Shown one piece after another: positions 1-41,726 of a stretch of DNA of 41,726 nucleotides. The position numbers and the translations under genes are program-made. Source of the stretch: a virus. The stretch is from IMG/VR virus record IMGVR_UViG_3300045988_034074. One strand, written 5' to 3'. The first letter of the stretch is position 1. Every line of letters begins with the position of its first letter. The notes beneath the pieces are model-generated. The model worked only from the letters and a program-made list of their open reading frames with translations. It was not told the DNA's origin and ran no database searches.

Positions 1-94
1 AAGAGTGCTTGAAGAGTGCTTGAAGAGTGCTTGAAGAGTGCTTGAAGAGTGCTTGAAGAGTGCTTGAAGAGTGCTTGAAGAGTGCTTGAAGAGT
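1..94. repeat. Left direct terminal repeat: 8 full plus 1 partial tandem copies of the 11-mer AAGAGTGCTTG
   Basis: Perfect 11-bp periodicity read from nt 1 to 94. The same array is present at 41633-41726. Confidence 0.9.
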
Positions 95-3438: not shown

Positions 3439-6063
3439 ATGCCAACATTAGATGATGAGTTAAAACTTGAGAATGAATACAGACACATGGCGATGGAAAA
3501 ACTCAAGGCAATTCTCTCTCACAAGGAAGAGACTGGAGACGCTTCTCATACAGCCATGGGTGCTGGTCTTATTAACCATCTGTACGACAATTTAGCACAG
3601 AACATGCGTGTATGGTTGGACGTACAGTTGACACCTAAAAGAGGCGTAAAGCCCATGTATTATCAGTTTCTCAAGTACGCCAATGCACAGTATGACGATG
3701 ATGAGACGTTCATTTCTATTCTGTGTCTCTCATTGCTCTCTAATGTCATCAATCAGGCTGCTATCAAGGGCGGGGATGACGAATATCCGTCCCTCTCTCA
3801 TATAGGGGAAATCATTGGTGTGCAGATCACTCAAGAAGTACACTTGCAGGAATTTCTGAACTACTTGCAGGGTGAAGATTATCAGAAGTATATCAATAGC
3901 ACCTTGTTTCAGGACTGGCTTAAAACAAATAACAAGAAAATGTTTGAATTTACCAACATTCCTATTGGTATCGCAAGGGGACTTAAGACAAGAAACAGTG
4001 ACTACTACAGACGCTACTATGTCAGGGAAGTAGAAAACAAGATTGTCGAAGCGGGTATCCCATGGTCTCCAAGGAAATTTGACAAGAACGTATGGTTCAC
4101 TTTAGGGGGCAAGTTAGTAGAGGTGCTGCTTTCCTCTACAGACCTCTTTGAACTCCAGTCGGTAGGTGGTGAGGTTGACAAGCTTCATCCGACACAGAAG
4201 TTCATTGATATTTGGAAGACCAATACAGACTATTCACTCTTGCATGCCTACTCCTCTTGTCCTACCATCATCCTCCCAAAGGACTGGACTGATATCAATG
4301 ATGGGGGCTACTACGGAGAACTGGCAGTCTTTAATAGCATGCTGAGACTCTATCGTTTTCAGGATGGTGGCTACTATTACAAGAAGTACATGAGTAAGCT
4401 CAAGTCTGCTGACCTCTCCAAGCCCATGAAGGCTCTCAATTCTATCCAAAGTACCCCATGGAAAATTGACAAAAAGGTACTGGAAGTGGCTCATGAAATT
4501 GTCAAGATGGGTGGTGATAGAGCTGGTCTGCCACGCACCGAACCATTTGAGGGTCTCCCTAAGCTCCATAATCCAACTGAACAGGAACTCAAGGAACACA
4601 AGCACAAGGCGTATCTGCACTACAAGAAAGAGTCTAGTCGTAAAGGTAAGATGATTAGAGTATTAGCTAACATCAAGACCGCAGACCGTTTTAAGGACTA
4701 TGAGAGGATTTACTTCCCTTGCAACATGGACTTTAGAGGCAGGGTCTATCCTATTCCGCCCTTCTCATTTCAGGGGGATGACCTTAACAAGGGTCTTATT
4801 CAGTTTGCGGATGCCCCCAAGATCACAGACCCAGAGAGCGAGCGTTGGTTCTTGATTGCAGGAGCTGAGTTCGCAGGGATTGACAAGGTGTCTTTTGCTG
4901 AGGAAATCAAGTGGGTCAAGGATAACGAACGCAATATCCTTGATACTGCGGAAGACCCTATAGCTATGTTGGACTGGTGGGGAAATCTTGATTGTCCCTT
5001 TGAGTTCCTTCAGTTCTGCTTTGAATACCATAAGATGATCGACTACAAGGCGAGTCACAATGGGTCTATCATCGGATGGTCAACTGGTGTTCCAGTGGCA
5101 TTTGATGGAACGTGTTCTGGTCTTCAGCACTTTTCGGCAATCTTGAGAGACCCTGTAGGTGCGGAAGCAGTCAATCTGAAACCAAGTGACAGACCTCAAG
5201 ATATCTATGGTCGTGTAGCACAGGTTGTAAATCAAGTATTAAAACATGATTCAGAACAGGGTACAGTAGATGAATGGGATGATGACAAAAATAGGATGAA
5301 GCTCGGGACTAAGACCATGGCACAGTTATGGCTGAACTTTGGTGTCAATAGAAAAGTCACCAAGCGTTCTGTCATGACACTTGCATATGGGTCTAAGGAA
5401 TACGGCTTCAAGGAGCAGATTCTGACAGACACTATTGAACCTCACATGAATGAAGGTGTCTTTACAGAAGCCAATGCACACCCTATGGCTGCTTACATGG
5501 CAAAGCTGATTTGGAATGCAGTTAGAAAAGTAGTAGTCAAGGCTGTCGAAGGCATGGAGTGGCTTCAGAAGGTTACTAGACTCATCTGCAAGAATGAGAA
5601 CGTAGTACAGTGGACTACCCCCATGGGTCTTTTAATCCACCAACCGTACCTGACCACGAAGACCAAGATCTATAGACTCCGCTTTGCACAGACACAGAAG
5701 AGAATTTATGTTCCCTATACATTAGGGGATGTAAATAGCAGAAAGCAAGCTAACTCCATTGCACCGAACTTCATTCATAGCATGGACGCAAGCCACCTTC
5801 AGCTTACGGTCTGCACCGCTAAAGACCAAGGCATTAACCATTTTGCGATGATTCACGACTCTTATGGGACTACAGTAGCGGACGCAGGGGTTCTCTTTAA
5901 GACTGTCAGAGAGTGCTTTGTGAAGATGTACACGGAACATGACGTACTTAAAGAGTTCGCTGAGGAAGTGTCGCACCTGACCGAAAAGGAACTTCCTGAA
6001 CTGCCAAGCAAGGGGTCTTTTGATATCAATGAAGTCCTGAGTAGCCTTTATGCATTTCACTAA
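3439..6063 (+). CDS. T7-like single-subunit DNA-dependent RNA polymerase (874 aa)
   Basis: Motifs DFRGRVYP, FDGTCSGLQHFSA, RSVMTLAYGS, PNFIHSMDASHL and IHDSYGT align with T7 gene 1. The length is close to the T7 protein (883 aa). Confidence 0.97.
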   Translation: MPTLDDELKLENEYRHMAMEKLKAILSHKEETGDASHTAMGAGLINHLYDNLAQNMRVWLDVQLTPKRGVKPMYYQFLKYANAQYDDDETFISILCLSLLSNVINQAAIKGGDDEYPSLSHIGEIIGVQITQEVHLQEFLNYLQGEDYQKYINSTLFQDWLKTNNKKMFEFTNIPIGIARGLKTRNSDYYRRYYVREVENKIVEAGIPWSPRKFDKNVWFTLGGKLVEVLLSSTDLFELQSVGGEVDKLHPTQKFIDIWKTNTDYSLLHAYSSCPTIILPKDWTDINDGGYYGELAVFNSMLRLYRFQDGGYYYKKYMSKLKSADLSKPMKALNSIQSTPWKIDKKVLEVAHEIVKMGGDRAGLPRTEPFEGLPKLHNPTEQELKEHKHKAYLHYKKESSRKGKMIRVLANIKTADRFKDYERIYFPCNMDFRGRVYPIPPFSFQGDDLNKGLIQFADAPKITDPESERWFLIAGAEFAGIDKVSFAEEIKWVKDNERNILDTAEDPIAMLDWWGNLDCPFEFLQFCFEYHKMIDYKASHNGSIIGWSTGVPVAFDGTCSGLQHFSAILRDPVGAEAVNLKPSDRPQDIYGRVAQVVNQVLKHDSEQGTVDEWDDDKNRMKLGTKTMAQLWLNFGVNRKVTKRSVMTLAYGSKEYGFKEQILTDTIEPHMNEGVFTEANAHPMAAYMAKLIWNAVRKVVVKAVEGMEWLQKVTRLICKNENVVQWTTPMGLLIHQPYLTTKTKIYRLRFAQTQKRIYVPYTLGDVNSRKQANSIAPNFIHSMDASHLQLTVCTAKDQGINHFAMIHDSYGTTVADAGVLFKTVRECFVKMYTEHDVLKEFAEEVSHLTEKELPELPSKGSFDINEVLSSLYAFH

Positions 6064-6090: not shown

Positions 6091-6113
6091 TAATTGAGAC
6101 AAGAAACAGAGGA
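6091..6113 (+). promoter_or_regulatory. Phage RNAP promoter P1 (TAATTGAGACAAGAAACAGAGGA)
   Basis: One of four near-identical 23-mers, all intergenic and all on the + strand. It begins with TAAT as T7 promoters do. Confidence 0.7.
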
Positions 6114-17121: not shown

Positions 17122-17870
17122 TGCTATATATTCTTCTGGATGCTGATATGCTTTGCTTTGTGTCTTGCTCTTCAGTGGAGCGAGAGATAAATTGGGGTGA
17201 TGGTCTTTGGACTCTTCACGCCGATGCACATGAAGCTGAAGCACAGATTGATGATAGGGTCGAAGGAATTGTCACAACGATCTTGGACAAGCTGAACTAC
17301 GAAGGTGAGTACAGGATCATTATGTGCATTTCAGACCCAGTAGCCAATTTCAGAAAAAAGATCTTGTCTACCTATAAGGCTAACAGAATTGGTAAGAGAA
17401 AACCTGTTTGCTATCGGGAAGTCCTTGATTGGATTAAAGCACATTACACTACAAGGATGATCCCGACCCTTGAAGCAGATGACGTAGTAGGGATCCTTGC
17501 TACTCACTTCAAAGGACAGGAAGTGCATAGTTCTGGTGATAAAGACTTTAGGTCTATCCCCGGTATCTTTTACAACTTCCTTAAAGGAGAGCTGTATCAC
17601 ATCTCTGAGAGAGAAGCAGACAAATGGTTCTACACACAGGCACTCATTGGAGACAAAGCAGATAACTATGATGGTTGTCCGGGGATTGGTGAAAAGACAG
17701 CAGAAAAGATTTTTAAGAAGGAGGGAGTCTCATGGGGGACAGTAAAGAAAACTTTTCTAAGAAAAGGTCTAACAGAGGAAGACGCATTGCAGCAAGCAAG
17801 GGTCGCTCGCATTCTAAGAGACACAGAGTGGAAGGATGGGAAGCCGATTCTCTGGTCTCCATCGAAGTAG
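17121..17870 (+). CDS. 5'-3' exonuclease, T7 gp6/FEN-like (249 aa)
   Basis: LLDADML, YKANR, EADDVVG, SGDKDF and the H3TH segment LIGDKADNYDGCPGIGEKTAEK. Confidence 0.9.
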   Translation: MLYILLDADMLCFVSCSSVEREINWGDGLWTLHADAHEAEAQIDDRVEGIVTTILDKLNYEGEYRIIMCISDPVANFRKKILSTYKANRIGKRKPVCYREVLDWIKAHYTTRMIPTLEADDVVGILATHFKGQEVHSSGDKDFRSIPGIFYNFLKGELYHISEREADKWFYTQALIGDKADNYDGCPGIGEKTAEKIFKKEGVSWGTVKKTFLRKGLTEEDALQQARVARILRDTEWKDGKPILWSPSK

Positions 17871-18319
17871 ACCCTAACGATAATAAGACCCTTGACTATA
17901 TTGCATCAAAGGTCTATCACGAAATTCGGGAGCTGAGATCTAAACCCGGTAAGACCTTTGCTGACTTTGGGTCTATCTACTATAGTCTTTACTGGCTCGC
18001 AGAAGCAAAGCACCTTATTCTATTTAGGGATACTAAAGGACACAATGTGGGTGTGTTAGCTTTTGATATTGTTACACCATGGTACACACGCTACACCTGT
18101 TTTAGTGAACTCTTTGTACTTTGCTTAGACCCAGCTTTTCATGGCTTTGGTCGCATAGCTCTTAGGTACATGAAGAAGAGAGCTAAGGGGCTTGGTTGTG
18201 CTTTAATGGAGACAGGAGCGTCCATGACCGATGACCCTAAGATGATTGAAAATCTCTATAAGAGACACGGTAAATGTACGTTTATGTATCCATGTTTTGC
18301 TTGGGTCTTTCCTAATTGA
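17732..18319 (+). CDS. GNAT-like acetyltransferase (195 aa from the ATG at 17732)
   Basis: The C-terminal half carries a GNAT motif A-like segment, LCLDPAFHGFGRIALRYMKKRAKGLGC. A strong RBS (AAGGAGGG) lies 7 nt before the ATG at 17732, inside the exonuclease gene. The first roughly 45 residues are very basic. Confidence 0.5.
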   Translation: MGDSKENFSKKRSNRGRRIAASKGRSHSKRHRVEGWEADSLVSIEVDPNDNKTLDYIASKVYHEIRELRSKPGKTFADFGSIYYSLYWLAEAKHLILFRDTKGHNVGVLAFDIVTPWYTRYTCFSELFVLCLDPAFHGFGRIALRYMKKRAKGLGCALMETGASMTDDPKMIENLYKRHGKCTFMYPCFAWVFPN

Positions 18320-18337: not shown

Positions 18338-18360
18338 TAATTGAGTCAAGAAACAGAGGA
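18338..18360 (+). promoter_or_regulatory. Phage RNAP promoter P4 (TAATTGAGTCAAGAAACAGAGGA), head of the structural block
   Basis: One mismatch to the consensus. The position corresponds to T7 phi6.5. Confidence 0.65.
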
Positions 18361-21445: not shown

Positions 21446-22435
21446 GTGGCAGACGTTACTGTCGCACAGCCCGGTCAGATTCAGGGTACTACTGACGCTC
21501 TGGGTGCTTATCTGAAAGTCTTTGCTGGTGAAACTCTGGCAGCTTTCTCTCGTTCTTCCGTTACGATGGGAAGACACATTGTCCGTACTATTTCTTCTGG
21601 TAAATCTGCACAGTTCCCGGTATTCGGTCGTGCAGACGCAGCTTACCTGAAACCGGGTAAGTCTCTTGATGATATCCGTCAGAACATTCCGACTGGTGAA
21701 AAGATCATCGTTATTGATGGTCTTCTGACTACCTCTCAGATGATTCCGGATATTGATGAGGCTCTGTCTCATTTTGATGTTCGCTCTGAATACTCCAAAC
21801 AGATGGGTGAAGCACTTGCTCTGAAAATGGATGGTGCTGTACTTGCTGAAGCAGCAAAAATGGTTGTTGCCAACAAGGAAAATCTGACTGGTCTGGGTAA
21901 AGGTGAGATCATCACTAAGAAGCTCGCAGCAGCTGATATTGGTGTTACTGAAGCAGAAGGTAAGGCTCTGGTACAGGCTCTTCTGGAAATTAAGGCTAAA
22001 ATGTCTAACAACTACGTTCCAGAAACTGAACGCTATGTCTTTATGACCCCAGAAGCTCGTACTGCACTCATTGCATCTCTGGTCGCTATTAACCGTGATT
22101 ACGGTGGTGTAGCAACTATTACTGATGCTAACATCCTCCGTATTGCTGGCTTCGATATCATCGAATGTCCACACCTGACCATGGGTGGTGCAGAAGTCAA
22201 CGATGGTCTGCTTCAGGGTGATGGTCATGTCTTCCCGGCTACTTACAAAAACAAGTGTGCATTCATTGCAATGCATAAGTCCGCTGTAGGTACGGTTAAG
22301 CTCCGTGACCTGAAGCTCGAACGTGCAAGACGAGCAGAATATCAGGCTGATATGCTTGCAGCTTCTTATGCTGTAGGGCATGGCGGTCTGCGTCCAGAAG
22401 CAGCTTACATGGGTTGCATTGAAGCAACTCTGTAA
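21446..22435 (+). CDS. Major capsid protein, T7 gp10-like (329 aa)
   Basis: GTG start with RBS AAGGAG. LKVFAGETLAAFSRSSVTMGRHIVRTISSGKSAQFPVFGR aligns closely with T7 gp10A. Confidence 0.95.
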   Translation: MADVTVAQPGQIQGTTDALGAYLKVFAGETLAAFSRSSVTMGRHIVRTISSGKSAQFPVFGRADAAYLKPGKSLDDIRQNIPTGEKIIVIDGLLTTSQMIPDIDEALSHFDVRSEYSKQMGEALALKMDGAVLAEAAKMVVANKENLTGLGKGEIITKKLAAADIGVTEAEGKALVQALLEIKAKMSNNYVPETERYVFMTPEARTALIASLVAINRDYGGVATITDANILRIAGFDIIECPHLTMGGAEVNDGLLQGDGHVFPATYKNKCAFIAMHKSAVGTVKLRDLKLERARRAEYQADMLAASYAVGHGGLRPEAAYMGCIEATL

Positions 22436-22443
22436 CTTAAACC

Positions 22444-22461
22444 GAGTATAGAGATATACTC
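22444..22461 (+). other. 7-bp hairpin with a GAGA (GNRA) tetraloop in the capsid 3' UTR
   Basis: GAGTATA-gaga-TATACTC paired by hand. Confidence 0.5.
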
Positions 22462-22476
22462 AAACTAATTAAAGAA

Positions 22477-22508
22477 GGGTGTATGGCTCGTACCATATAC
22501 CCTTTTAT
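22477..22508 (+). terminator. Terminator after the capsid gene (Tphi analogue)
   Basis: 10-bp stem GGGTGTATGG/CCATATACCC (one G.U pair), 6-nt loop, then TTTTAT. Same position as T7 Tphi. Confidence 0.7.
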
Positions 22509-22569
22509 GTCCCTTTAGTTCAGTGGAAGAATATTAAAGACTTGGGTTCGATTCCCAAAGGGGACTCCA
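22509..22569 (+). ncRNA. tRNA-like element lacking an anticodon arm, with encoded 3' CCA
   Basis: Acceptor GTCCCTT/AGGGGAC; U8; D-arm GTTC-AGTGGAA-GAAT; 9-nt linker; T-arm TTGGG-TTCGATT-CCCAA; discriminator T; CCA. Confidence 0.6.
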
Positions 22570-22599
22570 CAAAAACTATTATTTATGAAAGGAGCTACT

Positions 22600-23169
22600 A
22601 TGATTCTTACATCTAATAAATCCATAGATGCTATCAATGATATGTTAGCAGCTGTAGGGGAAGCTCCTGTCAATACTCTTGAAGACTCCCAGAATATCGA
22701 TGTTGAGAACGCCATTAGGGTCTTAGAGAAAGTAAATAGACAGGTGCAGTCTAAAGGCTGGTCTTTCAATCATGTTGATGAAGCAAAGCTGAACAGAGAT
22801 GTGACTACAAATAAGATCAAATGGCAGGATGACATTCTCTATATTGTCGGAACAGATGGGACTAAGTATGTCCAGAGGGGCGAATATGTCTATGATTTTG
22901 ACAATCAAACAGACACATTCACTTCGGATATTGAAGTAGAACTCATTCGTCTTATTGACTTCGACTACATGCCTTCTGTTGCTAGAGACTACATTGTAGC
23001 TAAAGCAGCTAGAATCTTCCAGTCTCAGACCCTTGATGATGACAGTATTGGTCAGAACCTTTTGGCTCAGGAACAGGAAGCATGGGCAGCACTTCAGGAA
23101 TATGAAATGGAACTTGGAGACTATTCTATGTTTAGTGTTCAGCCAGTTCAGACTCTGGAGGCACGCTAA
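22600..23169 (+). CDS. Tail tubular protein A, gp11-like (189 aa)
   Basis: The ATG at 22600 has RBS AAAGGAG. AINDMLAAVGEAPVNTLED...VNRQVQSKGWSFN aligns with T7 gp11. Confidence 0.9.
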   Translation: MILTSNKSIDAINDMLAAVGEAPVNTLEDSQNIDVENAIRVLEKVNRQVQSKGWSFNHVDEAKLNRDVTTNKIKWQDDILYIVGTDGTKYVQRGEYVYDFDNQTDTFTSDIEVELIRLIDFDYMPSVARDYIVAKAARIFQSQTLDDDSIGQNLLAQEQEAWAALQEYEMELGDYSMFSVQPVQTLEAR

Positions 23170-41392: not shown

Positions 41393-41632
41393 CTGGGTCT
41401 TACAAAATTTTGGAAAAAATTGTGAAGTGTCTATTCATCCACTTGGGCGGGTCTGGATTCCCCCTCTATGGTACTCTTCAGGTCTTCGCAGCGTTACCAC
41501 TTTAGCTCTTTAGGACTTCACTGACACACAGATTACAACGCCATCTAACACATGCTCTATAGCACTCTTTAGGATACCTTATAGAACACTCAAGGGATAC
41601 CATGGCTAATACTGTCATGGATACTGGTGGAC

Positions 41633-41726
41633 GCTTGAAGAGTGCTTGAAGAGTGCTTGAAGAGTGCTTGAAGAGTGCTTGAAGAGTGCTTGAAGAGTGC
41701 TTGAAGAGTGCTTGAAGAGTGCTTGA
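41633..41726. repeat. Right direct terminal repeat: GCTTG plus 8 copies of AAGAGTGCTTG plus A
   Basis: Same 11-mer array as 1-94. Confidence 0.9.

What the first reader, a model, noticed from the sequence alone, without database searches (positions are those of the whole stretch)
22509..22569. A tRNA-like element with encoded CCA but no anticodon arm sits immediately after the capsid-gene terminator
One nucleotide after the terminator's TTTTAT tract, the sequence folds as a tRNA missing its anticodon stem-loop. The acceptor stem is GTCCCTT/AGGGGAC (7 bp, one U.G pair), followed by U8-A9. The D-arm is GTTC-AGTGGAA-GAAT, with the conserved GG. A 9-nt linker, ATTAAAGAC, replaces the anticodon arm and variable loop. 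The T-arm is TTGGG-TTCGATT-CCCAA, with a canonical TTCGA loop, followed by discriminator T and a genomic CCA. I tried every register for a 5-bp stem with a 7-nt loop in the 26 nt between the acceptor and T arms and found none. The acceptor, T and D features are too canonical to be chance, yet the element cannot decode. It could act as an RNase P or RNase Z processing signal that trims or stabilises the capsid mRNA 3' end. It could be a CCA-adding or aminoacylation minihelix substrate. It could also be a decoy for host tRNA-binding defence or tRNA-modifying factors that recognise the elbow and acceptor. The plainer alternative is a decayed tRNA gene.
Basis: partly seen in the sequence, partly recalled or inferred. 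Interest (0 to 1): 0.75.

Follow-up and report, generated by a model that had tools for sequence, protein, structure and literature searches.

The report
Anticodon-less tRNA-like RNA in T7-like phage
A 61-base tRNA look-alike with no anticodon arm sits between the capsid and tail genes of an uncultured T7-like phage, is kept in shape by selection across related phages, and most likely works as a cutting signal for the host's tRNA-processing enzymes rather than as a decoder.

Summary
Window 22509-22569 (+) has a 7-bp acceptor stem, a D arm, a 9-nt linker where the anticodon arm should be, a T arm, a discriminator U and an encoded CCA. ARAGORN and a default Rfam scan both miss it. A sensitive Rfam scan scores it 45.7 bits against the tRNA model (cut-off 29), with the anticodon arm deleted.

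The window is a complete T7-like podophage genome. Every relative of its clade carries something tRNA-shaped in the same slot. Two carry intact tRNAs (Arg-UCU, Asp-GUC). There are also 12 distinct anticodon-defective variants and a smaller acceptor/T-arm hairpin.

The defective variants keep 98% of stem pairs, with four compensated pairs and a covarying 15:48 tertiary pair. They are far more conserved than neutral sites in the adjacent capsid gene. They also swap between backbones as cassettes. So the element derives from a tRNA gene but has not simply decayed.

No phage-promoter motif lies downstream, so every tail-gene transcript must contain it.

Best reading (about 0.5): an RNase P and 3'-processing punctuation signal, like plant mitochondrial t-elements or MALAT1-mascRNA. 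A trans-acting decoy RNA is not excluded. No transcript or enzyme data exist.

The parts
22509..22569 (+). Anticodon-arm-less tRNA-like element (61 nt): acceptor 22509-15/22559-65, U8 A9, D arm 22518-32, 9-nt linker 22533-41, T arm 22542-58, discriminator U 22566, CCA 22567-69
   Evidence: Sequence. Rfam tRNA 45.7 bits with the anticodon arm deleted. Armless covariance model R1 79.5 bits, the only copy in the window. Covariation in relatives.
22473..22508 (+). 14-bp hairpin (stem 22473-86/22493-506, loop CTCGTA) plus 2-nt tail AU. Terminator-like, but with a short, partly paired U-run. It ends 2 nt before the element, and position -1 is U.
   Evidence: Fold. Not called by the terminator scan. 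Relatives have hairpin + UUAUAU, AUAU or CUAU before the element, while clades without the element mostly have T4-T6 runs (one has T3).
22444..22461 (+). Hairpin GAGTATA-GAGA-TATACTC, invariant in sequence across the whole clade. Role unknown.
   Evidence: Single copy in the window. Exact matches in all relatives.
21446..22435 (+). Major capsid protein gene (upstream cistron)
   Evidence: tblastn to annotated T7-like major capsid proteins. ORF and translation.
22570..22599 (+). AU-rich spacer and Shine-Dalgarno sequence (AAGGAG 22589-94) of the tail tubular protein A gene. Probable zone of 3' processing.
   Evidence: Sequence. The spacer and RBS are conserved in relatives.
22600..23169 (+). 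Tail tubular protein A gene (downstream cistron). The true start is ATG 22600, not 22585.
   Evidence: Pfam Tube, E 1.9e-45. Relatives start at the equivalent ATG and lack the upstream ATG.
18338..18358 (+). Last copy of the 21-nt repeat TAATTGAGNCAAGAAACAGAG (candidate phage-RNAP promoter). No further copy lies before the genome end.
   Evidence: Four copies, at 6091, 6385, 11051 and 18338. Nothing above chance downstream at up to 7 mismatches.

Best explanation
The element is a tRNA-derived, non-decoding tRNA-like RNA gene that selection keeps in tRNA shape.

Proposed mechanism. It lies inside the late transcription unit, between the capsid gene with its 3' hairpin and about 19 kb of tail, internal-virion, lysis and terminase genes. 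Those genes have no recognisable promoter of their own, so every transcript that reaches them contains the element. Once folded, its 12-bp acceptor/T-arm stack, D/T-loop elbow, U at -1, G at +1 and 3' UCCA make it a substrate for host RNase P. RNase P would cut between U22508 and G22509. The host's tRNA 3'-end machinery would then cut or trim in the AU-rich spacer after CCA.

The cut would leave the capsid mRNA ending 2 nt after a 14-bp protective hairpin. It would release a roughly 58-61-nt CCA-ended RNA and free the tail-gene mRNA. That uncouples the stability and amount of the capsid message from the messages downstream. The element would therefore work as tRNA 'punctuation', like plant mitochondrial t-elements or MALAT1-mascRNA.

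Shown here: the structure, its conservation and covariation, the common slot, and the absence of a downstream promoter motif.

Inferred, not shown: transcription through the hairpin, cleavage by RNase P, 3' trimming, and that cleavage is the selected benefit.
For: 1. tRNA shape. Rfam tRNA 45.7 bits with only the anticodon arm missing. G18 G19, the T54-A58 loop, U8 and A14 are all present.

2. Selection on shape.
- Over all 15 distinct slot occupants, 98.3% of cells are paired and 11/16 pairs show double changes. 0/500 shuffles reach this, and slid controls give 36-64%.
- Among the 12 anticodon-defective variants alone, 188/192 cells are paired. Compensated pairs occur at 2:71, 3:70, 50:64 and 51:63.
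- RNAalifold recovers the three helices on an alignment not fitted to the structure.
- The Levitt pair covaries: G15/C48 in the window and L007, A15/U48 in all others (sequences).

3. Conservation against the neutral rate.
- Window vs L007: 4/61 differences against 0.32 at capsid 4-fold sites (P about 2e-6).
- L002 vs L004: 1/79 against 0.32 (P about 2e-12).
- L001 vs L005: 5/71, all in the T arm, against 0.35.

4. Slot logic. At the same junction, always after a hairpin and the leader ...UAU|G, sister phages carry tRNA-Arg, tRNA-Asp, several armless or short-armed variants, or a 6+6-bp acceptor/T minihelix. All of them share an acceptor stem stacked on a 7-nt-loop T-type hairpin. All except the outlying L015 and L034 elements also carry the canonical UUC-purine-A T-loop. 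That shared part is the part RNase P reads.

5. Hairpin tails. In slot-bearing phages the hairpin has a T-run of 1-4 (one exception, L015). Related clades without the element have runs of 3-6, mostly 4-6.

6. Promoters. The last promoter-like repeat is at 18338 and there is none downstream.

7. Precedent.
- An anticodon-less tRNA-like module with a 7-bp acceptor (M. smegmatis YrlA) is cut by M1 RNA and CCA-tailed (PMC4201824).
- t-elements define mRNA ends through RNase P/Z and are CCA-tailed but not aminoacylated (PMC1920247, PMC11658184).
- Minihelix substrates of RNase P (my own knowledge).
Against: - There are no transcript ends, no small-RNA data and no enzyme assay, and the host is unknown.
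- A pure cutting signal does not need its middle to be conserved. Yet each allele's middle is identical on backbones 30-35% diverged at neutral sites. That points either to recent cassette transfer or to a function of the released RNA.
- Allele classes are old and are shuffled among backbones. That pattern is more typical of accessory or counter-defence loci.
- Four of the 12 variants carry one acceptor mismatch, and L079 has CAA instead of CCA.
- Armless elements elsewhere sit inside tRNA arrays, where no extra punctuation is needed.
- The promoter motif is inferred from four repeats only, so other promoter types could exist downstream.
Confidence: 0.5

Rival explanations
1. The released, CCA-ended, anticodon-less RNA is itself the product. 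It would be a trans-acting tRNA-body mimic that titrates or blocks a host factor reading the acceptor end or elbow. Candidates are tRNA-targeting defence nucleases, acceptor-end modifiers such as CapRel or MenT, CCA-adding or repair enzymes, or EF-Tu. On this view the slot is a counter-defence cassette holding either replacement tRNAs or uncleavable decoys.
For: - Several old allele classes are shuffled among near-identical backbones, and intact tRNA-Asp and tRNA-Arg alternate with the armless forms.
- Each allele, including its middle, is nearly invariant across diverged backbones.
- CCA is encoded in 11 of the 12 defective variants.
- Armless elements also occur inside tRNA arrays of a 196-kb phage contig and of an Anaeroplasmataceae MAG contig.
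- Phage tRNAs are known to counter tRNA-cleaving defences, and CapRel and MenT act on the acceptor end (PMC11555353; bioRxiv 10.64898/2026.07.10.737580).
Against: - No target is known and no defence-related gene is linked to the element.
- The alleles' middles share no motif, and three alleles have no middle at all.
- The L008-type minihelix lacks both the D arm and CCA.
- Nothing here shows that the RNA accumulates.
- This rival is compatible with, and would depend on, the same RNase P excision.
Confidence: 0.2
2. It is a tRNA pseudogene without a function of its own. On this view a cargo tRNA gene lost its anticodon arm by deletion. The remaining order reflects youth and repeated recombination with intact tRNA genes of co-infecting phages.
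For: - Intact tRNAs occupy the same slot in sister phages.
- The armless model also scores the tRNA-Arg at 53.7 bits.
- Mosaic breakpoints lie inside the element, and L002/L004 carry a chimera-type C.A mismatch.
- Four of 12 variants have an acceptor mismatch, and L079 lost CCA.
- Truncated tRNA-Gly-like copies in three Rheinheimera genomes show that such deletions do occur, with stem mismatches in two of the three.
Against: - All 31 clade loci examined (30 relatives plus the window) keep an element. None has lost it, although the genome is compact.
- 98% of pairs are kept, with compensated changes on defective alleles only.
- Divergence is 5-25 times below neutral.
- Deletions always spare the acceptor, D and T arms.
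- The armless-A allele persists on two backbones 32% apart at neutral sites, and two of its four differences form one compensated pair.
Confidence: 0.17
3. It acts at the DNA level, as a recombination hotspot, an attachment-site remnant or a polymerase signal, and not as an RNA.
For: Recombination breakpoints cluster at and inside the element. tRNA genes are classic integration sites (my own knowledge).
Against: - No integrase was found among the 40 ORFs scanned.
- Both halves of the tRNA are present.
- Compensatory changes preserve pairing, including G.U pairs, on the transcribed strand.
- There is no match to the promoter repeat.
Confidence: 0.03

Closest known systems
Plant mitochondrial t-elements (PMC1920247; PMC11658184)
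   Same: - tRNA-derived, non-decoding tRNA-like folds that keep the GGTTCRANYCC T arm.
- They sit at mRNA boundaries inside polycistronic transcripts.
- They are cut by RNase P/Z to make mRNA ends.
- They end in CCA and are not aminoacylated.
   Different: - Organellar, not viral.
- Their CCA is added after transcription, whereas here it is encoded.
- Most keep a distorted cloverleaf, whereas here the anticodon arm is cleanly gone.
- Their processing is shown by experiment. Here it is only inferred.
MALAT1-mascRNA / MEN-beta tRNA-like (Rfam RF01684; Wilusz et al. 2008, my own knowledge)
   Same: - A tRNA-like RNA of about 61 nt lies directly after a 3'-stabilising structure of an abundant upstream RNA.
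- One RNase P cut makes both the upstream 3' end and the small RNA.
- The anticodon region is not functional.
   Different: - Eukaryotic nuclear lncRNA.
- The upstream stabiliser is a triple helix, not a hairpin.
- The Rfam score here is only 21.1 bits against a cut-off of 42.5, so this is an analogy and not membership.
YrlA (bacterial and phage Y RNA) tRNA-like module (RF02553; PMC4201824)
   Same: - Architecture of acceptor-like stem + D arm + V loop + T arm, with no anticodon arm.
- G15:C48 / A15:U48 covariation.
- The M. smegmatis version is cut by RNase P RNA and CCA-tailed.
- Also found in phages.
   Different: YrlA continues into a Ro60/Rsr-binding stem carrying the GNCGAAN0-1G motif and lies next to an rsr (TROVE) gene. 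Here there is no such stem or motif, no TROVE gene, and no RF02553 hit even at E<=10.
Ordinary phage cargo tRNA genes
   Same: Same slot, same flanks and same leader as the tRNA-Arg(UCU) and tRNA-Asp(GUC) of sister phages. Related in sequence to that tRNA-Arg.
   Different: No anticodon arm, so it cannot decode. ARAGORN gives no call.
tmRNA tRNA-like domain and plant-virus 3' tRNA-like structures
   Same: An acceptor/T-arm mimic without an anticodon, ending in CCA.
   Different: - No G3:U70 pair.
- No tag reading frame, and no tmRNA call.
- A standard, non-pseudoknotted acceptor stem.
- Located inside a DNA-phage operon, not at an RNA genome end.
- Only weak local Rfam hits.

Membership tests
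Canonical decoding tRNA (RF00005) | 7-bp acceptor stem, D arm, and a 5-bp T arm with a T-psi-C loop | tested here: met
Canonical decoding tRNA (RF00005) | Anticodon arm (5-bp stem with a 7-nt loop holding an anticodon) | tested here: not met
   13 model positions are deleted in the Rfam alignment. ARAGORN makes no call. Only 9 nt lie between the D and T arms.
Canonical decoding tRNA (RF00005) | Score at or above the Rfam gathering threshold | tested here: met
   45.7 bits against 29, but only with permissive filters. The default scan misses it.
Neutral tRNA pseudogene | Homologous to an intact tRNA at the orthologous locus | tested here: met
   tRNA-Arg and tRNA-Asp occupy the same slot. R1 scores the tRNA-Arg at 53.7 bits.
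Neutral tRNA pseudogene | Evolves at the neutral rate, with stems accumulating uncompensated changes | tested here: not met
   188/192 cells paired, with four compensated pairs. Divergence is 1-7% against 32-35% at 4-fold sites. Caveat: cassette transfer can shorten the age of an allele.
tRNA-like mRNA-processing element (t-element / mascRNA type) | Non-decoding tRNA-like fold placed at a cistron boundary inside a longer transcript | tested here: met
   It lies between the capsid and tail tubular A genes, and no promoter motif lies downstream.
tRNA-like mRNA-processing element (t-element / mascRNA type) | Ends of the element coincide with mapped transcript ends, with cleavage by RNase P and a 3' enzyme | not testable with these tools
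   No transcript or enzyme data are available. The substrate features are present: a 12-bp stack, U at -1, G at +1 and UCCA at the 3' end.
YrlA / bacterial Y RNA (RF02553) | Ro60-binding stem with the GNCGAAN0-1G motif, and a match to the Rfam model | tested here: not met
   No RF02553 hit at E<=10, although the model does detect Bacteroidota copies. No such motif in 22436-22600.
YrlA / bacterial Y RNA (RF02553) | Adjacent rsr (TROVE) gene | tested here: not met
   No TROVE hit among the 40 ORFs scanned with Pfam or PHROGs. The 1789-aa ORF was not scanned.
tmRNA | tRNA-Ala-like end with G3:U70, plus a tag-peptide reading frame | tested here: not met
   The 3:70 pair is C-G. ARAGORN finds no tmRNA.
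attP / integrative-element tRNA fragment | An integrase gene, and a 3' tRNA fragment identical to a host tRNA | tested here: not met
   No integrase in the scanned ORFs. Both tRNA halves are present. Identity to a host tRNA could not be tested because the host is unknown.

The most novel reading that the evidence does not exclude
The slot after the capsid gene is a counter-defence cassette. Sister phages load it either with replacement tRNAs (Arg-UCU, Asp-GUC, both isoacceptor types known as targets of anticodon nucleases) or with anticodon-less tRNA bodies. The armless RNAs would be excised by RNase P. They would then act as uncleavable decoys, or as sponges for host immunity proteins that dock on the tRNA elbow or acceptor end. 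Frequency-dependent selection would then explain the old, shuffled allele classes.
Probability: 0.13. Interest if true: 0.85.

Novelty: new variant of a known kind. Interest (0 to 1): 0.6.

Why it matters
If the punctuation reading is right, this T7-like lineage uses a stripped-down tRNA and host RNase P to do what T7 does with RNase III sites. That job is to set the 3' end of its most abundant mRNA and to release the downstream late messages. tRNA punctuation, known from organelles and from MALAT1, would then extend to a DNA phage.

It would also show that standard annotation systematically misses such elements. ARAGORN and the default Rfam filters both missed this one. Sensitive scans found similar armless elements in other phage and bacterial contigs.

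The cassette-like exchange with intact tRNAs gives a natural experiment on what a phage tRNA slot is for. It also offers a ready set of alleles to test for decoy or anti-defence activity.

Tried and rejected
- Megablast and blastn of the locus against cultured phages found nothing. The closest cultured capsids are about 50% identical, so there is no annotated relative.
- An exact-pattern scan for the element in viral contigs found nothing.
- My first degenerate D-arm pattern was in the wrong register for the window allele. It still turned up aberrant tRNA-like genes elsewhere.
- MAFFT misaligned the three alleles that have an extra D-arm base, so I used a covariance-model alignment together with RNAalifold on an unfitted subset.
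- Thermodynamic stability is not informative (z = -0.38).
- The more distant slot occupants (L008 minihelix, L015, L034) do not reach significance against Rfam tRNA or R1. They count only as candidates.
- I rejected a second copy or a dispersed family in the genome.
- I rejected tmRNA, YrlA and attP (see the membership tests).
- Aminoacylation identity has no support: there is no G3:U70 pair, and the acceptor resembles tRNA-Glu/Arg types, whose synthetases need the anticodon (my own knowledge).
- I rejected a coding role. The minus-strand ORF 22515-22769 overlaps the Tube gene and is mechanical.
- I rejected hairpin 22444-61 as a phage promoter. It is single-copy and unlike the 4-copy repeat.
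- Seven literature searches found no description of anticodon-less tRNA-like elements in phage late operons.
- The host could not be identified. One relative comes from a human gut metagenome.

Full report
**Observation**

The window is a complete T7-like podophage genome. It encodes:
- a single-subunit RNA polymerase (3439-6063)
- primase-helicase, DNA polymerase and endonuclease I
- portal, scaffold and capsid (21446-22435)
- tail tubular A (22600-23169) and the nozzle protein
- tail fibre and terminase

It has tandem-repeat terminal repeats.

ARAGORN reports no tRNA in the window. A default Rfam scan reports nothing. With permissive filters the Rfam tRNA model matches end to end at 45.7 bits (cut-off 29, E 7e-9), with the 13 anticodon-arm positions skipped. 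The element is therefore real, far beyond chance, and invisible to routine annotation. Its folding energy alone is unremarkable.

**Surroundings**

Between the capsid stop codon and the element lie two hairpins:
- GAGTATA-GAGA-TATACTC (22444-61), invariant in sequence.
- A 14-bp hairpin (22473-506) whose 3' strand uses the four U's. Only AU is left before G22509.

The terminator scan does not call the second hairpin.

After CCA comes an AU-rich 18-nt spacer, then the Shine-Dalgarno sequence, then the ATG of tail tubular A at 22600.

A 21-nt repeat, TAATTGAGACAAGAAACAGAG, occurs four times in intergenic positions: 6091, 6385, 11051 and 18338. It is the obvious candidate phage-polymerase promoter. 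Nothing resembling it occurs after 18338, even at 7 mismatches. If that reading is right, every transcript of the roughly 19 kb of late genes downstream of the capsid hairpin must pass through, and therefore contain, the element.

**Relatives**

I collected two sets of related loci:
- 42 viral-contig loci, found by a capsid-protein search.
- 16 genuine relatives, found by a metagenome scan with the invariant hairpin. One comes from a human gut metagenome.

Every member of the clade that shares the hairpin (capsid 84-98% identical) has something tRNA-shaped at the same place, always preceded by hairpin + ...UAU|G:
- **Intact tRNAs.** L057 and L098 carry tRNA-Arg(TCT). L064 carries tRNA-Asp(GTC).
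- **Anticodon-defective variants.** There are 12 distinct ones. In three kinds the arm is replaced by 4-5 nt: the window and L007; L003 and L066; and L079. Others have a 3-bp stem with a tetraloop, a 3-bp stem with an 8-nt loop, or irregular 22-nt inserts.
- **Minihelix.** The L008 group has only a 6-bp acceptor stacked on a 6-bp T-type hairpin, joined by an 11-nt linker and without CCA. It is not significant by covariance model.

Clades with capsids 76% identical or less have just a hairpin followed by a T-run, mostly of 4-6. The slot-bearing phages have runs of 1-4, with one exception.

**Is the shape under selection?**

I built a covariance model of the armless architecture (R1). It finds one copy in the window and all slot occupants in the relatives.

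- On the model-fitted alignment, 98.3% of cells are paired and 11 of 16 pairs show double changes. No shuffle out of 500 reaches the observed values, and slid controls give 36-64% pairing.
- Restricted to the 12 anticodon-defective variants, 188 of 192 cells are paired. Compensated pairs occur at 2:71, 3:70, 50:64 and 51:63. Four cells are mismatched.
- RNAalifold, run on a MAFFT alignment not fitted to any structure, recovers the same three helices with four covarying pairs.
- The tertiary Levitt pair also covaries. It is G15/C48 in the window and L007, and A15/U48 in every other allele and in both intact tRNAs.

Against the neutral yardstick of 4-fold-degenerate sites in the adjacent capsid gene, alleles are strongly conserved:

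| Pair | Differences in the element | Capsid 4-fold divergence | P |
|---|---|---|---|
| Window vs L007 | 4/61 | 0.32 | 2e-6 |
| L002 vs L004 | 1/79 | 0.32 | 2e-12 |
| L001 vs L005 | 5/71 | 0.35 | 4e-8 |

Two of the four window-L007 differences form one compensated pair. All five L001-L005 differences are in the T arm: two compensated pairs plus one loop base.

For contrast, truncated tRNA-Gly-like copies in three Rheinheimera genomes show stem mismatches in two of the three, as expected for decay.

**Cassette behaviour**

The element's history is decoupled from the backbone.
- Window and L002 are 98% identical across the capsid gene and identical through both hairpins. They diverge from base 13 of the element to the ribosome-binding site of the next gene, and carry different alleles.
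- A capsid tree puts the window (armless), L002 (22-nt middle), L001/L085 (14-nt middle) and L064 (intact tRNA-Asp) in one tight clade. The same 14-nt and 22-nt alleles recur together on a distant backbone pair, L005 and L004.
- The C4.A69 mismatch of L002 and L004 looks like the scar of a breakpoint inside the element.

So the allele classes are old, each is internally conserved, and they are exchanged by recombination.

**Mechanism**

Shown here:
- a tRNA-shaped, non-decoding element, conserved and covarying
- a fixed position after a hairpin, with U at -1
- encoded CCA in the window and in 11 of the 12 defective variants
- no downstream promoter motif

Inferred:
- Late transcripts read through the weak hairpin/terminator.
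- Host RNase P cuts at U22508|G22509. Anticodon arms are dispensable for RNase P. Minihelices are substrates, and so is the anticodon-less M. smegmatis YrlA with its 7-bp acceptor (PMC4201824).
- 3' processing then occurs in the AU-rich spacer.

The result would be a capsid mRNA ending just after a protective hairpin, a small CCA-ended RNA, and a separate tail-gene mRNA. This is how plant mitochondrial t-elements work (PMC1920247, PMC11658184), and how MALAT1-mascRNA works.

The strongest argument is comparative. Very different occupants share the slot: two unrelated intact tRNAs, many defective ones and a bare minihelix. What they all have in common is the acceptor stem stacked on a T-type hairpin.

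The main weakness is that a mere cutting signal does not explain two things. Each allele's middle is invariant across diverged backbones, and the locus behaves like an accessory cassette. Recent transfer could explain both. So could a function of the released RNA. I give punctuation 0.5, a trans-acting decoy or mimic 0.2, a functionless remnant 0.17, and DNA-level roles 0.03.

**Comparison with known families**

- It is not a decoding tRNA, because the anticodon arm is absent.
- It is not tmRNA.
- It is not YrlA: there is no RF02553 hit at E<=10, although the same model detects Bacteroidota copies. There is also no Ro-binding stem and no TROVE gene.
- It is not an attP remnant, because there is no integrase.
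- It works like t-elements and mascRNA, but membership in any processing class cannot be tested without transcript ends.

Seven literature searches found no description of such an element in a phage late operon.

Sensitive scans show that the architecture is not unique:
- L162 is an armless element with G15/C48 and CCA, next to a tRNA-Pro in a 196-kb phage contig.
- L219 holds one or two armless elements inside a tRNA cluster in an Anaeroplasmataceae MAG contig.
- Several phage tRNA-like genes have 4- or 6-nt 'anticodon' loops.

**Verdict**

The finding is real and was well described. The 'decayed tRNA' origin is right, but 'simple decay' is not. The element is a selected, tRNA-derived tRNA-like RNA, most likely a processing signal and possibly more. 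I rate it a new variant of a known kind, with interest 0.6.

Noticed in passing
window 22444-22461: Hairpin GAGTATA-GAGA-TATACTC just after the capsid stop codon. It is 100% identical in sequence in every clade member, although the flanks vary and carry indels. It is single-copy in the genome. Sequence-level conservation suggests a protein or nuclease recognition site.
   Followed up: partly
window 6091, 6385, 11051, 18338 (+): Four copies of TAATTGAGACAAGAAACAGAG in intergenic positions, probably the phage RNA-polymerase promoter. None lies downstream of the capsid gene, so all tail, lysis and terminase genes seem to depend on read-through.
   Followed up: partly
window 1-93 and 41630-41726: Both genome ends consist of about 8 tandem copies of the 11-nt unit AAGAGTGCTTG. 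These are direct terminal repeats built from a tandem repeat.
   Followed up: no
L034 1822-2450; also L011, L012, L013, L032: L034 has a group I intron (Rfam 69 bits) just upstream of the part of its capsid gene that matches. In these five loci the capsid match starts only at residue 53, which suggests intron-split capsid genes.
   Followed up: no
L162 2950-3009; L219 5309-5368 and 3080-3142: Anticodon-arm-less tRNA-like elements (R1 40-53 bits) lie inside tRNA gene clusters of a 196-kb phage contig and of an Anaeroplasmataceae MAG contig. L162 ends in an encoded CCA. L219 5309-5368 ends in CAA. L162 also has G15/C48.
   Followed up: partly
L218, L236, L249 (Rheinheimera soli, R. faecalis, R. 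mesophila): A chromosomal tRNA-Gly-like gene that lacks the 3' half of the anticodon arm and has an encoded CCA. It is present in three species, and two of the copies have stem mismatches.
   Followed up: no
L109 5195-5265, L110 4838-4910, L116 6649-6712, L175 801-872, L161/L164/L190/L191: Phage tRNA-like genes with full cloverleaves but 4- or 6-nt 'anticodon' loops. ARAGORN returns 'tRNA-???' or no call. L175 is close in sequence to the window's family (R1 64 bits) but sits in an early-gene region of a different phage.
   Followed up: partly
L242 2576-2938 and 7755-7874, and about 10 other Bacteroidota loci (L211-L250): D-arm/T-arm modules without an anticodon arm that match Rfam YrlA below threshold (about 35-37 bits). 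L242 has several copies. They are probably unannotated Y-RNA-like genes.
   Followed up: no
window 17732-18319: A 195-aa ORF between the exonuclease and portal genes with a weak GNAT acetyltransferase match (Pfam E 0.004, below the cut-off). Its PHROG family has no known function.
   Followed up: no
L004, directly after its element: A 21-nt insertion carrying a perfect small hairpin (GCTAGATTGAATCTAGC) lies between the tRNA-like element and the tail tubular A ribosome-binding site. It is absent from L002, which has the same allele.
   Followed up: no
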